Source: Deltaproteobacteria bacterium (GTDB taxonomy: Bacteria > Desulfobacterota_D > UBA1144 > Nemesobacterales > UBA2774). Taken from it: 64,000 bases of DNA. The translations under genes were made by a program, and so were the position numbers. The notes under the pieces were generated by a model. The model was not told the DNA's origin, did not search any database, and worked only from the letters and a program-made list of their open reading frames with translations. The DNA lies in the NCBI GenBank assembly GCA_029262275.1, contig JAJCZS010000007.1, positions 58,785 to 122,784 of the forward strand, in the 5' to 3' direction. Positions 4,030 through 9,899 of the stretch are shown one piece after another. Within the stretch, counting starts at the first letter, position 1. The number at the start of each line of letters is the position of its first letter.

Positions 4030-4392
4030 TTAAGCAGTGGCTCTTCTTTTTCGAATAACCATAATAAAACCTATTAATCCTAATGCGCCAGCCATAGCTA
4101 TAAGACCCCATTCTGATAGTGTTGGAACATTTCTTGATGTCACTATGCATTGTCCGGCAGATTCTTCACAAATAGCACCAGGCACTATATTCTGGACTGA
4201 ACATGTCATCCCTGGTACTCCTGGAGGTGGTTGCACAATATCCATACAACCATCATCGAACTGACAACATGAGGGGCCACCGGGCAGCGGGTTAAAACCT
4301 GCATTTCCCTCTTCAGGTAAAGCTAAAAATACGAAACTAACAATAAGGAATGATACTACAAACATAGATATACTTTTTCTATTTATTATCAT
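4030..4392 (-). CDS. small secreted Cys-rich protein with C-terminal IPTL-CTERM sorting signal (120 aa)
   Basis: N-terminal signal peptide and a 7-Cys mature region. The C-terminus reads VPTLSEWGLIAMAGALGLIGFIMVIRKRR: an IPTL-like motif, a TM helix and a basic cluster. This is the architecture of the IPTL-CTERM (exosortase-type) sorting domain. Confidence 0.5.
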   Translation of the reverse strand: MIINRKSISMFVVSFLIVSFVFLALPEEGNAGFNPLPGGPSCCQFDDGCMDIVQPPPGVPGMTCSVQNIVPGAICEESAGQCIVTSRNVPTLSEWGLIAMAGALGLIGFIMVIRKRRATA

Positions 4393-4558
4393 CTTCCCTC
4401 CTTCTTTAAGTTTTTTTTATTATATCACATTGCTGTATATACATACTAGTTTAAATATCAATATGTTGGATTTAGCGATATAAGACGAATATAAAGTCTT
4501 TGATTTATCTCTACAGGGTTTTAATTAATTGTGTATGTTATGAGTTGTAGAAGCCCAG

Positions 4559-5215
4559 ATGAAACCTGAAAACATACATAAAATAGTTAAAGTGTTATCT
4601 AGAGAGTCTCCTAAATGGGATGTGCCTATTGTCACACTTGTTGCTGAAACTTCCAAGGACCCCTTCAAAGTATTAATTTCGACAGTACTCAGCCTAAGAA
4701 CCAAGGATGAAACTACAGCTGTAGCATCAAGGCGTCTGTTTAAGCTTGCCGACAATCCCGAGGATATGCTCAAACTCAGCGAAAAACAGATTATAGATGC
4801 AATATATCCAGTTGGCTTCTATAAAACTAAAGCGAAAAATATTAAATCGATCTGTACTGATCTGATTACTAAATATGATTCCAAAGTGCCGGACGATATA
4901 GATGAGCTCTTAAAGTTTGGTGGGGTAGGGCGTAAGACGGCTAATTTAGTTGTGACTCTTGGATATAATAAGCCTGGGATTTGTGTGGACACACACGTTC
5001 ACAGAATCTCAAACCGCTTTGGATATATAAAAACAAAAACACCAGATGAAACCGAAATGGTTCTTAGAAAGAAATTGCCGACGGAGTATTGGATAGACTA
5101 CAACAGCCTTCTGGTGGCTTTTGGTCAGCATCTGTGCCGGCCAATTTCCCCTAAATGCTCCCAGTGTCCTGTGGAAAAATACTGCGATCGAGTGGGCGTT
5201 GGTAAAAGCAGATAA
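4559..5215 (+). CDS. nth: endonuclease III (DNA glycosylase/AP lyase)
   Basis: HhH-GPD domain with the catalytic-Lys motif (LLKFGGVGRKTANLVV) and Asp in VDTHVHR. A C-terminal [4Fe-4S] loop is present (C-x6-C-x2-C-x5-C: CRPISPKCSQCPVEKYC). Collinear with E. coli Nth over the whole length. Confidence 0.85.
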   Translation: MKPENIHKIVKVLSRESPKWDVPIVTLVAETSKDPFKVLISTVLSLRTKDETTAVASRRLFKLADNPEDMLKLSEKQIIDAIYPVGFYKTKAKNIKSICTDLITKYDSKVPDDIDELLKFGGVGRKTANLVVTLGYNKPGICVDTHVHRISNRFGYIKTKTPDETEMVLRKKLPTEYWIDYNSLLVAFGQHLCRPISPKCSQCPVEKYCDRVGVGKSR

Positions 5216-5241
5216 GTAGAAAGTTTTCAGTGTACTGTAAA

Positions 5242-5706
5242 TCAAGAATTCATTGGAAAGTTGAGAGGGTCACTTTTATATTCATTGCCCAATTCATCTC
5301 TGAAAAAACCTGCTATTTTTATATCATTAGCGATGTTCCGCTGATGAAATTCTTCACGTAACATATTATAAGGAATAAATGCTGATATGCTATGCCCAGG
5401 CTTTAATAAATGAGGAAGGGGATGTAAAGAGTATTGATTCATGTAAGGAAAGATTAATTGTCCATTAATACCTTCAACATAAAAACCATAACTAGAAATT
5501 ATCACCTCTCGATTTATAGAATGGTTCTGCGCTGTTGTCATTATATTATGAGTGGGTTGAGCAAATTGACCTACAGGAAATGACCAAGAAAGTTTAATTT
5601 TGATATTTAATCTATCTTTAAACCATGCTGCATATGAAGAAACAATAGCAGCATAAATAGCTACAGCAATTGTAAAACAACCAATCACTAATTCATATTT
5701 ATTCAT
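5242..5706 (-). CDS. hypothetical membrane-anchored protein (154 aa)
   Basis: One N-terminal TM helix (LVIGCFTIAVAIYAAIVSSYAAWF) followed by a ~120-aa soluble domain with no recognised motif. It sits 24 nt downstream of the DUF2971-like gene in a visibly AT-rich segment. Confidence 0.35.
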   Translation of the reverse strand: MNKYELVIGCFTIAVAIYAAIVSSYAAWFKDRLNIKIKLSWSFPVGQFAQPTHNIMTTAQNHSINREVIISSYGFYVEGINGQLIFPYMNQYSLHPLPHLLKPGHSISAFIPYNMLREEFHQRNIANDIKIAGFFRDELGNEYKSDPLNFPMNS

Positions 5707-5730
5707 ATGTTTCTCTTATGATCTATCTCA

Positions 5731-6585
5731 TTACCACCCACGATATGGAATGTTTGAATTACTAAAAAGACTACAGTCTATTTTCTTAGATAGTAATAGC
5801 GACCGTACTGAAAAAAGTGATAAATCTGCATGCGGTGTTGGGCCTATTATCAAATCAGCAATTTTTACTTTACCCTTACCTTTTACTATATTGAAAGTCA
5901 TATAAGGTGTAATCATTGATTTAACTGATCTATATAAGAATTTGTTATTACTATCAGAAAAAAATAATGGAGAAACTAATCTCCATTCCCTCTCTTCAGA
6001 AAAAGAAGGATGCTTCAATAATGGTGCTATTGATTCCACAAATTTGAAAGCATAGCGAATAATAAGTTGTGATGTTTCTTGCGGTGGAGAATTGTCTGAA
6101 TCATTTTTAGCACACGTATCTATCAGATCTGTTATAAATTCATTTACAATTTCGGTCTGTTCGTGCTCATTGTATATACAAGGAACTAATTTGAACTTTT
6201 GTTCACGAATTAGAGGTTTTAAATAATTGTTTTCAAACCCGATACTATATCCAGCAGCATTATCTGTGTATCCTCTCCATTGACTTAGTAAGTCACCATT
6301 CTCAGAAAAAGATGTAATAAATGTATGTGAGTATTCCGATCCTTCTAAACGGTTAAGTAAACTATTTGCGTATCCATTACGTTTATCCTTAATAGTATAA
6401 TACTGATTTATTTGATTTTTGAGTAGTTCAAGTCCATATACAAATTCATATGAGTCGTTTAGATACCTTATGTGTGTAGACCATATTGATTTAGAGCTCA
6501 GTATCCCTATAAGTCCATCATGGGTAGTGTAATGATAAATAATATGTGATGGTTGGCGATTCAGAATTTCGTCAAGTATCTTCAT
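5731..6585 (-). CDS. DUF2971-family protein (284 aa)
   Basis: The N-terminal block IIYHYTTHDGLIGILSSKSIWSTHIRYLNDSYEF and the later FITSFSENGDLLSQWRGYTDNAAGYSIGF match the DUF2971 signature (YxYt…L.SIL.s..lw.s….NDp.E … vlSfs….MW..Y.dnh.G.ciEF). The gene is AT-rich. Confidence 0.45.
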   Translation of the reverse strand: MKILDEILNRQPSHIIYHYTTHDGLIGILSSKSIWSTHIRYLNDSYEFVYGLELLKNQINQYYTIKDKRNGYANSLLNRLEGSEYSHTFITSFSENGDLLSQWRGYTDNAAGYSIGFENNYLKPLIREQKFKLVPCIYNEHEQTEIVNEFITDLIDTCAKNDSDNSPPQETSQLIIRYAFKFVESIAPLLKHPSFSEEREWRLVSPLFFSDSNNKFLYRSVKSMITPYMTFNIVKGKGKVKIADLIIGPTPHADLSLFSVRSLLLSKKIDCSLFSNSNIPYRGW

Positions 6586-6741
6586 TTTTATAAGATACCT
6601 TATATGCTGTAATTTTATATTATTTCGATCAAATTATCTCATACTCATAAGATTCTTTAGTTCATAGTTTGACTATCTTTTCATTCCAAATATACTTCAT
6701 AGTCCTAAGAATAATTACTCTATCAGGAGGACTTTACAAGC

Positions 6742-7251
6742 TTGGAAACTGTAGTGTTTTATGTATTTGCGGCACTTGCTTTGGCTGGTGCGCTAATGGT
6801 TATTTCGTTTAAAAACCCTGTGTCTAGCGCCCTTTCTCTAGTCCTCACGCTATTTTCAACCGCGGTGCTCTTTATTCTACTTCTTGCTCACTTCATAGCT
6901 GCTGTACAGATACTTGTGTACGCGGGGGCTATTATGATTTTGTTCCTTTTCACTGTGATGTTCTTAAACTTGAAACCAGGAGCACTAAAATTTGAATCAA
7001 CAAATTTGGGTTTTAAAGTCAGCATTTTGCTTGTGATCCTGTTATTTGTAGGCTATTTTGCAAGCTTAGGTTTTAGAAAAGGGATACTTGTACGGGACCT
7101 TGGTGTATCTGAAATGGATGGTTTTGGCAGTATACAAGGTGTGGGTACAACTTTATTCACGGAGTATTTACTTCCGTTTGAGCTTACATCTGTGCTGATA
7201 TTAGTTGCAATAATAGGTGTTGTAGTAATAGCAAAAAAGAGGTCTAGCTAA
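6742..7251 (+). CDS. nuoJ: NADH-quinone oxidoreductase subunit J
   Basis: Five-TM hydrophobic 169-aa protein. TTG start with AGGAGG 11 nt upstream. It lies directly upstream of nuoK and nuoL. Confidence 0.7.
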   Translation: METVVFYVFAALALAGALMVISFKNPVSSALSLVLTLFSTAVLFILLLAHFIAAVQILVYAGAIMILFLFTVMFLNLKPGALKFESTNLGFKVSILLVILLFVGYFASLGFRKGILVRDLGVSEMDGFGSIQGVGTTLFTEYLLPFELTSVLILVAIIGVVVIAKKRSS

Positions 7252-7252
7252 G

Positions 7253-7558
7253 TTGGAAATAACAACAGAACACTATTTGGTTTTAAGCGCGCTTCTTTTT
7301 GTAATAGGCGCATATGGAGTGATTGTCAGAAGAAATCTGATAATAGTTCTAATGTGTCTGGAGCTCATGCTCAACTCTGCAAACCTTGCTTTCGTAGCGT
7401 TCTCGAGGGCTTTGGGTGATATGACAGGGCAGGTGTTTATGATCATGTCAATCACAGTTGCAGCAGCCGAGGTAGCTGTGGGGCTCGCGCTACTAGTTGC
7501 CATATATTCACATAGAGAAAGTCTTGATATCGACATCTTAAAGCTTCTTAAGGGATAA
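7253..7558 (+). CDS. nuoK: NADH-quinone oxidoreductase subunit K
   Basis: 101 aa with 3 TM helices and the conserved NuoK/ND4L motif (…VRRNLIIVLMCLELMLNSANLAFVAF…). Confidence 0.8.
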   Translation: MEITTEHYLVLSALLFVIGAYGVIVRRNLIIVLMCLELMLNSANLAFVAFSRALGDMTGQVFMIMSITVAAAEVAVGLALLVAIYSHRESLDIDILKLLKG

Positions 7559-9557: not shown

Positions 9558-9899
9558 CTAGAATTTTTTAGCAAAGTAGGCAAACGGAGGGATAATAAGC
9601 CCTAAAGTCTTATTATCATCTGTGGTTATGCTTGGTATTGTGCGGAGAATGGCTTCTTTTTCTAAAGGTTTTGTTTCATATTTGGTAGCAGCTGACTTTG
9701 CGTAGATAAATTCCGGCCCGCTATATACATCAACTAGATCAGGCATTAACTCAATTTCTATATAACTTGCTTTATCCACCACGGGTTCAATTTCTTCATT
9801 AGCATGGCTTAAGGGACTATATGTAGCACAAAGTACAGCTATGAATAATACAGCTAATAATTTTATTTCTATGTCTCCATAAATAACTTTTTTAATCAT
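9558..9899 (-). CDS. hypothetical secreted protein (113 aa)
   Basis: N-terminal signal peptide. No recognised domain. Confidence 0.3.
   Translation of the reverse strand: MIKKVIYGDIEIKLLAVLFIAVLCATYSPLSHANEEIEPVVDKASYIEIELMPDLVDVYSGPEFIYAKSAATKYETKPLEKEAILRTIPSITTDDNKTLGLIIPPFAYFAKKF

What the first reader, a model, noticed from the sequence alone, without database searches (positions are those of the whole stretch)
5242..6585. AT-rich two-gene island: DUF2971-like protein plus a membrane-anchored unknown, wedged between nth and nuoJKL
The segment is visibly more AT-rich than the flanking housekeeping genes. It encodes a 284-aa protein matching the DUF2971 signature (YHYT…ILSS.SIW…YLND..E … SFSENGDLLSQWRGYTDNAAGYSIGF). 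A 154-aa protein with one N-terminal TM helix and an unknown soluble domain lies 24 nt downstream. Neither has a known function. Compact unknown-function pairs in compositionally atypical DNA between core genes are typical of anti-phage or abortive-infection modules. The membrane-anchored partner would fit an effector role.
Basis: partly seen in the sequence, partly recalled or inferred. Interest (0 to 1): 0.6.

Follow-up and report, generated by a model that had tools for sequence, protein, structure and literature searches.

The report
Acquired DarT-like ADP-ribosyltransferase gene plus passenger
A 1.45-kb AT-rich insertion between two core genes carries a lone DUF2971 gene, a DarT-like ADP-ribosyltransferase of the kind shown once to abort phage infection, plus a small membrane-tethered protein that is never its partner elsewhere, so this is an ordinary accessory gene and not a new two-gene defence system.

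Summary
Two intact minus-strand ORFs (284 aa, 5731-6585; 154 aa, 5242-5706; 24-nt gap) sit between nth and nuoJ. They occupy the lowest-GC 1.3 kb of the window (0.32 vs 0.40, z = -3.1).

In the closest Candidatus Dadabacteria-like relatives the same nth-nuoJ gap is empty (118 nt between nth and nuoJ) or holds unrelated cargo. The segment is therefore an insertion at a variable spot.

Gene 1 passes Pfam DUF2971 (57 bits, cut-off 22). It folds with high confidence (pLDDT 92), and its best structural matches are DarT and Tpt1. It keeps invariant H18, Y106 and E198-x-E200. DUF2971 is already described as an ADP-ribosyltransferase family, and one member (Aristaios) is a validated single-gene abortive-infection system.

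Gene 2 is not an orphan. It belongs to an unannotated family of about 85 proteins with an N-terminal anchor and a cytoplasmic Ig-like beta-sandwich.

The pair is not co-conserved. None of 164 DUF2971 loci has a gene-2 relative, and none of 9 gene-2 loci has DUF2971.

Verdict: this is a new member of a known kind. The two-gene system is not supported. Interest is low to moderate.

The parts
5216..6661 (.). Variable, horizontally acquired segment (about 1.45 kb, GC 0.313) between the nth stop codon and the conserved nuoJ promoter block
   Evidence: Alignment with the empty sites of L003 and L039 places the right boundary just upstream of the conserved block that starts near 6662. Gap lengths in relatives are 118-1008 nt, against 1523 nt here. 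There are no flanking direct repeats, no tRNA and no integrase.
5731..6585 (-). DUF2971 protein, 284 aa: predicted cytoplasmic DarT/Tpt1-like ADP-ribosyltransferase fold with helical inserts
5707..5730 (-). 24-nt spacer between the two genes, with a purine-rich AAGAGA a few bases before the second ATG; no room for a separate consensus promoter and no terminator
   Evidence: Sequence read. The promoter/terminator scan found nothing in the spacer.
5242..5706 (-). orf154: member of an unannotated family with a short N-terminal tail, one anchor helix (about residues 3-30) and a cytoplasmic Ig-like beta-sandwich (about residues 35-150)
6662..6741 (+). Conserved nuoJ upstream block (right boundary of the insertion), including the promoter-like TTGACT-16-TATACT at 6669-6696
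   Evidence: The block is conserved in L003, L039 and L006. The promoter-like site matches 10 of 12 consensus positions.
4559..5215 (+). nth (endonuclease III family), left flank, convergent with orf154 (26 nt between the stop codons)
   Evidence: TIGR01083 has E 2.3e-55. Identity is 85-89% in Dadabacteria-like relatives. No terminator hairpin lies between the stops.
6742..7251 (+). nuoJ, right flank, divergent from the DUF2971 gene
   Evidence: NuoJ NCBIfam models match. Synteny is conserved in relatives.

Best explanation
The segment at about 5216-6661 is a horizontally acquired accessory cassette. It is lodged in a variable intergenic spot between nth and the nuoJKL promoter of a Candidatus Dadabacteria-like bacterium.

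Its first gene encodes a cytoplasmic DUF2971 protein. This is an ADP-ribosyltransferase-fold enzyme whose nearest solved relatives are the DNA ADP-ribosyltransferase DarT and the RNA 2'-phosphotransferase Tpt1, with the H...Y...E-x-E residues conserved.

The most likely function (inferred, not shown) is a stand-alone toxin or abortive-infection enzyme like Aristaios. It would be kept inactive in healthy cells. On phage infection it would use NAD+ to ADP-ribosylate nucleic acid or a component of the expression machinery, which shuts down transcription and aborts the infection.

The second gene encodes a membrane-tethered cytoplasmic Ig-like domain protein from a small unannotated family. It was acquired with the first gene and is probably co-transcribed with it. 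It is not a conserved partner of DUF2971 and is best treated as an independent passenger of unknown role.

Shown: the gene models, the insertion polarity relative to relatives, family membership, the folds, and the lack of co-occurrence.

Inferred: enzymatic activity, target, trigger, defence role and co-transcription.
For: Insertion:
- Synteny sigma-nth-nuoJKL-orf113-glnA is conserved in relatives.
- The nth-nuoJ gap is empty in L003 and L039 and holds different cargo in L002, L004 and L005.
- No remnants of the pair occur in those gaps.
- The island is the lowest-GC stretch of the window, and the two genes have matching GC3.

ART identity:
- Pfam DUF2971 scores above its cut-off.
- H18, Y106 and E198-x-E200 are invariant.
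- 16 of 36 subfamily members give the same faint N-terminal Tox-ART-HYD1 match, and 2 match AbiGi.
- Published profile analysis places DUF2971 in the H-Y-E ART clade next to DarT and AbiGi (PMC12522546).

Defence precedent:
- Aristaios is a 316-aa DUF2971 single-gene Abi system (PMC11381338) that blocks phage transcription and protein production (PMC13064643 and PMC12967558).
- PDC-S31 matches are weak.
- Relatives occur on 615 plasmid records and in at least 127 viral or prophage contigs.
- The closest relatives sit beside integrase or transposase genes.

Stand-alone nature:
- 80 loci show no recurrent neighbour.
- The downstream gene is often convergent.

Passenger status of orf154: co-occurrence is 0 of 164 and 0 of 9.
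Against: - No activity, target or phenotype is known for this subfamily.
- DUF2971 is very large and diverse, so transferring function from Aristaios is weak. Identity to Aristaios could not be measured.
- PADLOC matches are weak and partial (27.6 bits, about half of the model).
- The catalytic residues were assigned from the alignment and secondary structure, not from a superposition.
- Neighbours of relatives are mostly housekeeping genes, with only a few defence genes. There is therefore no strong defence-island signal.
- The tight 24-nt spacing and identical composition of the two genes would also fit a functional pair.
Confidence: 0.55

Rival explanations
1. This is a lineage-specific two-gene module. 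The DUF2971 enzyme and the membrane-tethered orf154 work together, for example with orf154 as anchor, sensor, inhibitor or effector of the ART.
For: - The genes are on the same strand, 24 nt apart, with no terminator or promoter between them.
- Their GC and GC3 are nearly identical, which suggests joint acquisition.
- Both proteins are predicted to face the cytoplasm.
- Other DUF2971 subfamilies do have partners: an 'abortive infection family protein' 35 nt downstream on IncF plasmids, and a C26-like gene plus a small permease-like membrane protein on a Legionella plasmid (PMC12522546).
Against: - No orf154-family ORF occurs in 164 DUF2971 loci, including the closest relatives.
- No DUF2971 occurs in 9 orf154-family loci.
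- The orf154 family sits downstream of unrelated genes (type III Res, crcB, an HTH protein) in other genomes.
- The partners seen in other subfamilies are unrelated to orf154.
- A single anchor helix plus an Ig-like domain is not a typical membrane-disrupting effector.
Confidence: 0.2
2. The DUF2971 gene is not a defence gene. It is an accessory or selfish NAD+-utilising enzyme with another role, such as nucleic-acid modification or repair in the manner of Tpt1, an addiction toxin, or an anti-defence function inherited from a mobile element. The cassette is simply drifting accessory DNA.
For: - Neighbours of relatives are mostly metabolic or housekeeping genes.
- Only about 5% of neighbours hit defence models.
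- The family is abundant on conjugative plasmids, where non-defence functions are common.
- 18% of DUF2971 proteins were predicted to be secreted effectors in PMC12522546.
Against: - The only experimentally characterised member is an Abi system.
- The strict conservation of H18, Y106 and E-x-E matches transferase ARTs such as DarT, not the R-H-R-R tetrad of Tpt1 (the tetrad comes from my own knowledge and was not tested here).
- The patchy distribution, with at most 43% identity to any other protein among 5.8 billion, and the insertion at a variable spot are typical of conflict genes.
Confidence: 0.2
3. The cassette is a decaying, non-functional remnant of a mobile element.
For: - No mobility genes, repeats or tRNA lie at the borders.
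- No consensus promoter was found upstream of the DUF2971 gene.
Against: - Both ORFs are full length relative to their families.
- All invariant family positions are retained.
- Both models are confident.
- Long ORFs are hard to maintain by chance in 31% GC DNA.
Confidence: 0.05

Closest known systems
Aristaios (Lactococcus plasmid pUCCL641_199, 316 aa; Grafakou et al. 2024, PMC11381338)
   Same: Both are DUF2971 (PF11185) proteins of about 300 aa with a predicted ADP-ribosyltransferase fold. Both are encoded on horizontally mobile DNA. In the window protein's subfamily the gene occurs without a conserved partner. Aristaios acts alone as an Abi system and blocks phage transcription.
   Different: The hosts are in very distant phyla. 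The window gene has a co-transcribed downstream gene. No phenotype is known here.
DarT of the DarTG toxin-antitoxin/defence system
   Different: There is no Pfam DarT match at E<=1. There is no DarG macrodomain antitoxin next to it: orf154 is an Ig-like domain, and the flanks are nth and nuoJ. Two large helical inserts (residues 42-82 and 140-189) are absent from DarT, which has 208-221 residues in the matched chains.
PADLOC candidate single-gene system PDC-S31
   Same: The window protein hits four PDC-S31 models, and 29 of 36 subfamily members also hit. It is a single-gene candidate built on DUF2971-type proteins.
   Different: Scores are low (best 27.6 bits, E 5e-7) and cover only about half of the model (positions 56-164 of 220). 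It is a distant relative, not the same subfamily.
DUF2971 + Abi-family protein pair on enterobacterial IncF plasmids, and the DUF2971 + C26-peptidase-like + iron-permease-like operon of Legionella
   Same: In each case a DUF2971 gene is followed closely on the same strand by a second gene. In Legionella one of the downstream genes encodes a small membrane protein (PMC12522546).
   Different: The partners are unrelated to orf154 (hhalign probability below 0.1%). Identity of the DUF2971 proteins to the window protein is only 31-33%.

Membership tests
Pfam DUF2971 (PF11185) | HMM score at or above the gathering cut-off | tested here: met
   The score is 57.4 bits against a cut-off of 22, covering residues 102-203 and the whole 89-position model. 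All 36 aligned relatives also match.
ADP-ribosyltransferase superfamily, H-Y-E clade (DarT-like branch) | ART core fold | tested here: met
ADP-ribosyltransferase superfamily, H-Y-E clade (DarT-like branch) | Motif I His on strand 1, motif II Tyr, motif III catalytic Glu (E-x-E) | tested here: inconclusive
   H18 (strand 15-20), Y106 and E198-x-E200 (start of strand 200-204) are invariant in 36 relatives. This agrees with the motifs published for DUF2971. Residue-by-residue superposition on DarT was not possible because no coordinates were exposed.
ADP-ribosyltransferase superfamily, H-Y-E clade (DarT-like branch) | NAD+-dependent ADP-ribosyl transfer | not testable with these tools
   This needs a biochemical assay.
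DarTG toxin-antitoxin system | DarT-family toxin by sequence (Pfam DarT model) | tested here: not met
   No DarT family match at E<=1 for the window protein or for any of the 36 relatives.
DarTG toxin-antitoxin system | Adjacent DarG macrodomain antitoxin | tested here: not met
   The only adjacent gene in the cassette is orf154, which has no Pfam match and an Ig-like fold. The flanking genes are nth and nuoJ.
Aristaios single-gene Abi system | DUF2971 domain protein of about 300 aa with an ART fold | tested here: met
   Aristaios description.
Aristaios single-gene Abi system | Significant full-length similarity to pUCCL641_199 | not tested
The paper gives only a BioProject, and plasmid searches returned no Lactococcus record in the listed rows.
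Aristaios single-gene Abi system | Confers abortive-infection phage resistance on its own | not testable with these tools
   This needs cloning and phage challenge.
PADLOC PDC-S31 | Confident, near full-length match to a PDC-S31 model | tested here: not met
   The best match is 27.6 bits, E 5.4e-7, covering model positions 56-164 of 220. The subfamily's best is E 3.7e-10.
   No orf154-family ORF in 80 metagenome loci or in 84 further loci. No DUF2971 in 9 orf154-family loci.
Genomic island / variable hotspot | Present/absent polymorphism at an orthologous site, with atypical composition | tested here: met
   Empty sites occur in L003 and L039, and different cargo in L002, L004 and L005. GC z-score is -3.1.

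The most novel reading that the evidence does not exclude
The orf154 family is a previously undescribed, promiscuous accessory module: an N-out single-pass anchor with a cytoplasmic Ig-like domain, about 85 clusters, and no annotation in Pfam, NCBIfam, PADLOC or PHROGs. It attaches to the 3' end of different conflict or mobile operons. Here it sits after a DUF2971 ART. In L166 it sits between a type III R-M system and a PDC-M50 TIR system. In L170 it is in a relaxase-bearing element. In this genome it might tether or gate the ADP-ribosyltransferase at the membrane, which would make the pair a new two-component variant of an Aristaios-like Abi system.
Probability: 0.15. Interest if true: 0.55.

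Novelty: new member of a known kind. Interest (0 to 1): 0.3.

Why it matters
If the best explanation is right, an Aristaios/DarT-like ADP-ribosylating defence gene extends into Candidatus Dadabacteria, an uncultured, poorly studied lineage. It also illustrates how such solitary genes lodge between core genes at a small intergenic hotspot without any visible mobility machinery.

The practical value is modest. The locus gives a compact, well-folded and divergent DUF2971 representative, at most 43% identical to anything else. It could help define the family's catalytic core and its target.

The work also flags an unannotated family of small membrane-tethered Ig-like proteins that recurs in variable DNA.

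It does not open a new class of system.

Tried and rejected
1. I first took orf154 for an orphan, because the word-index search found only itself. The exhaustive HMMER search overturned this with 87 relatives.

2. The search for related loci with the orf154 family alignment failed because the alignment has no sufficiently conserved stretch. I sampled contexts through 9 encoding-contig look-ups instead.

3. A 157-aa ORF overlapping the end of the closest long-contig DUF2971 relative (L172) looked like an orf154 counterpart by size. It is unrelated (hhalign probability 0.15%, BLASTP E 0.14), and its S/R/C-rich sequence looks spurious.

4. I tried to obtain the Aristaios sequence for a direct comparison. 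The paper gives only a BioProject. Plasmid searches with the window protein and with a streptococcal satellite-phage DUF2971 protein listed no Lactococcus record. I abandoned this.

5. I could not map invariant residues onto the model or superpose on DarT, because coordinates are not exposed.

6. The afdb50 fold library was unavailable. The viral fold search for orf154 gave only weak matches with TM-score below 0.5. PDB sequence searches gave nothing significant for either protein.

7. I looked for a hidden RNA partner, such as a ToxI-like repeat or a riboswitch. There was no Rfam match above noise, no tandem repeats, and no terminator hairpin between orf154 and nth.

8. I looked for direct repeats, a tRNA or an integrase that would explain the insertion. 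None was found.

9. I rejected a lipoprotein reading of orf154 (V-I-G-C at residues 7-10). The Cys is not conserved in the family, and the preceding segment is too short for a signal peptide.

10. I looked for defence-island enrichment around DUF2971 relatives. Only a handful of the 150 neighbours hit defence models; the most frequent defence families match 2 neighbours each (GajA, HNH, type I MTase; PD-Lambda-1 matches 1), and the rest are mostly metabolic genes.

Full report
**Observation**

One is a 284-aa ORF at 5731-6585 and the other a 154-aa ORF at 5242-5706. Both start with ATG and they are 24 nt apart. The left flank is nth (4559-5215, +), convergent with only 26 nt between the stop codons. 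The right flank is nuoJ (6742-7251, +), divergent with a 156-nt spacer.

The segment is the most AT-rich 1.3-kb stretch of the whole 64-kb window. GC is 0.319 against a mean of 0.396 (sd 0.025, z = -3.1), and only windows overlapping the island are as low. The two genes have nearly the same GC (0.318 and 0.320) and GC3 (0.206 and 0.225). nth and nuoJKL have GC3 of 0.35-0.42.

**Host and insertion**

Endonuclease III of the window is 85-89% identical to proteins of Candidatus Dadabacteria / Thermodesulfobacteriota MAGs. In those relatives the order sigma factor - nth - nuoJ - nuoK - nuoL - small ORF - glnA is conserved. The nth-nuoJ gap, however, varies:
- 118 nt and no gene in L003 and L039.
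- 269 nt in L006.
- 516 nt in L005.
- 910 nt in L004, with a DUF2188 protein and an RNase H-like (RVT_3) protein.
- 1008 nt in L002, with a 163-aa secreted protein.
- 1523 nt in the window.

Alignment with the empty sites shows that the nuoJ upstream block, including a TTGACT-16-TATACT promoter-like site at 6669-6696, is conserved from about 6662 onward. The acquired segment is therefore about 5216-6661. No remnants of either gene are detectable in the relatives' gaps. There are no flanking repeats, tRNA genes or recombinase genes, so the mechanism of insertion is unknown.

**Gene 1**

The 284-aa protein passes Pfam DUF2971 (57.4 bits, cut-off 22). It matches phrog_1762 (E 2e-26). It gives weak, partial matches to the PADLOC candidate single-gene system PDC-S31 (best 27.6 bits). 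It has more than 1000 relatives in the 5.8-billion-protein collection, but none above 43% identity.

Both are nucleic-acid-directed members of the ART fold.

In the alignment several residues are invariant:
- H18-Y19, on the first strand.
- L100-S101-Q102-W103 and Y106.
- Y138.
- E198, E200, W201 and R202, entering a strand.
- R219.

This matches the modified H-Y-E / E-x-E motif published for DUF2971 (PMC12522546). Sixteen of the 36 relatives give the same faint N-terminal match to Tox-ART-HYD1, and two match AbiGi. That recurrence is well above what chance families show in the same scan. I could not superpose residues on DarT because model coordinates are not exposed, so the motif assignment remains an alignment-based inference.

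**What is known about DUF2971**

Two papers bear directly on this family. A survey of Legionella ARTs classes DUF2971 as an H-Y-E-clade ART similar to DarT, AbiGi and Tox-ART-HYD1 (PMC12522546). A screen of lactococcal plasmids found that a 316-aa DUF2971 protein, Aristaios, confers phage resistance as a single gene with an abortive-infection phenotype (PMC11381338). [quoted passage not shown] The statement that neither protein has a known function is therefore outdated for gene 1.

**Gene 2**

The word-index search found only the protein itself. The exhaustive HMMER search of 1.84 billion cluster representatives found 87 proteins at E<=1e-3. Nearly all are 150-160 aa and aligned end to end, with the best at 41% identity.

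In 41 of 42 members the K/R cluster follows the helix (mean 4.4 against 0.4 before it). By the positive-inside rule the beta-sandwich is cytoplasmic and only about 5 residues face outward. No Pfam, NCBIfam, PADLOC or PHROG model matches. Gene 2 is thus a member of a small, real, unannotated family. Its architecture is a membrane tether plus a binding-type domain, not a pore-former.

**Is the pair a system?**

I tested co-occurrence in both directions.

An HMM of the orf154 family found no ORF in 80 metagenomic loci encoding relatives of the DUF2971 protein. It also found none in 84 further loci: 80 viral or prophage contigs, the two closest long-contig relatives, and two plasmids. A 157-aa ORF overlapping the end of the closest relative (L172) is unrelated and probably spurious.

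Conversely, nine loci encoding orf154-family proteins contain no DUF2971 ORF. Their contexts differ:
- Between a type III R-M system and a PDC-M50 (TM protein + ThsB-TIR) candidate system (L166).
- After crcB (L164 and L165).
- After an HTH protein (L169).
- In a relaxase/MobC element (L170).
- Among small unknown genes (L082, L163, L168).

Relatives of the DUF2971 protein have no recurrent neighbour. Their downstream gene is often convergent, and their neighbours are mostly metabolic or housekeeping genes, with a handful of defence genes. The closest relatives lie next to integrase or transposase genes.

What remains in favour of a local functional link is this:
- The 24-nt spacing has no terminator or promoter.
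- The two genes have identical composition.
- Other DUF2971 subfamilies do have partners: an Abi-family protein on IncF plasmids, and a C26-like gene plus a small permease-like membrane protein in Legionella.

Those partners are unrelated to orf154.

**Other components**

There is no Rfam match above noise, no tandem repeat, and no terminator hairpin in 4300-7300. A hidden RNA antitoxin or riboswitch is not indicated.

**Mechanism**

The best-supported reading (confidence 0.55) is a solitary, horizontally acquired DarT-like ADP-ribosyltransferase that acts as a stand-alone toxin or abortive-infection enzyme in the manner of Aristaios, with orf154 as a co-acquired, co-transcribed passenger.

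The shown steps are the gene models, the insertion, family membership, the fold and the absence of a conserved partner. The inferred steps are NAD+ use, the target (nucleic acid or the expression machinery), the phage trigger and the defence role.

The rivals are:
- A lineage-specific two-gene module (0.2).
- A non-defence accessory enzyme, for example Tpt1-like or of plasmid or prophage origin (0.2).
- A decaying remnant (0.05).

**Comparison with known systems and novelty**

The protein is a member of Pfam DUF2971 and, at fold level, of the ART superfamily. It is not a DarTG system, because there is no DarT sequence match and no macrodomain antitoxin. It is not a confident PDC-S31 member. 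Its relation to Aristaios beyond the shared domain could not be measured.

It is a new, divergent member of a known kind in an under-studied phylum. The unannotated orf154 family is the only new item, and nothing yet points to its function.

Interest is 0.3. The most novel reading not excluded is that orf154 is a promiscuous membrane tether or gate that makes this a new two-component variant. I give it a probability of about 0.15.

Noticed in passing
window 4030-4392 (-): A 120-aa IPTL-CTERM sorting-domain protein (TIGR04174, 26.9 bits against a cut-off of 20.5) lies between the sigma-factor gene and nth. It has low GC3 (0.231) and no counterpart in any of the Dadabacteria-like relatives. In those relatives the sigma-nth gap is 135-550 nt, against 619 nt here. 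This looks like a second small strain-specific insertion in the adjacent intergenic region.
   Followed up: partly
L004 6810-7398; L002 6800-7291: The same nth-nuoJ intergenic spot carries different cargo in relatives. L004 has a DUF2188 protein plus an RNase H-like/RVT_3 protein in low-GC DNA (0.334 against 0.424 in the flanks). L002 has a 163-aa secreted protein with no family match. The spot behaves as a small recurrent integration hotspot without visible mobility genes.
   Followed up: partly
L166 380-6288: An orf154-family gene (4877-5347) is wedged with 22-nt and 13-nt spacers between a type III R-M system (Mod + Res) and a PADLOC PDC-M50 pair (a 140-aa TM protein plus ThsB-like TIR). 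This is a compact defence island in an ENA metagenome contig.
   Followed up: partly
L174 5202-6559 (E. coli IncF plasmid NZ_CP026579.1): A DUF2971 gene is followed 35 nt later by an 'abortive infection family protein', next to ccdAB and IS elements. DUF2971 relatives were found on 615 plasmid records, 455 of them Escherichia, so this pair seems widespread and may be an uncharacterised two-gene plasmid module.
   Followed up: no
window 9558-9899 (-): The 113-aa ORF between nuoL and glnA has low GC (0.345). Only its C-terminal half (residues 63-113) is conserved in relatives, at 59-65% identity, and it has no family match. It is a fast-evolving small protein, apparently with an N-terminal hydrophobic segment.
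   Followed up: no
L176-L255 (IMG/VR contigs): At least 127 viral or prophage contigs encode relatives of the DUF2971 protein. In many of them the gene lies close to a contig end, as expected for prophage-border accessory genes.
   Followed up: no
L163 437-10075: The orf154 relative P0209 lies in a long same-strand run of small, mostly unannotated genes, many with N-terminal hydrophobic segments. The run includes a DUF4760 protein and a secreted SNase-domain protein, in a 215-kb NCBI MAG contig.
   Followed up: no
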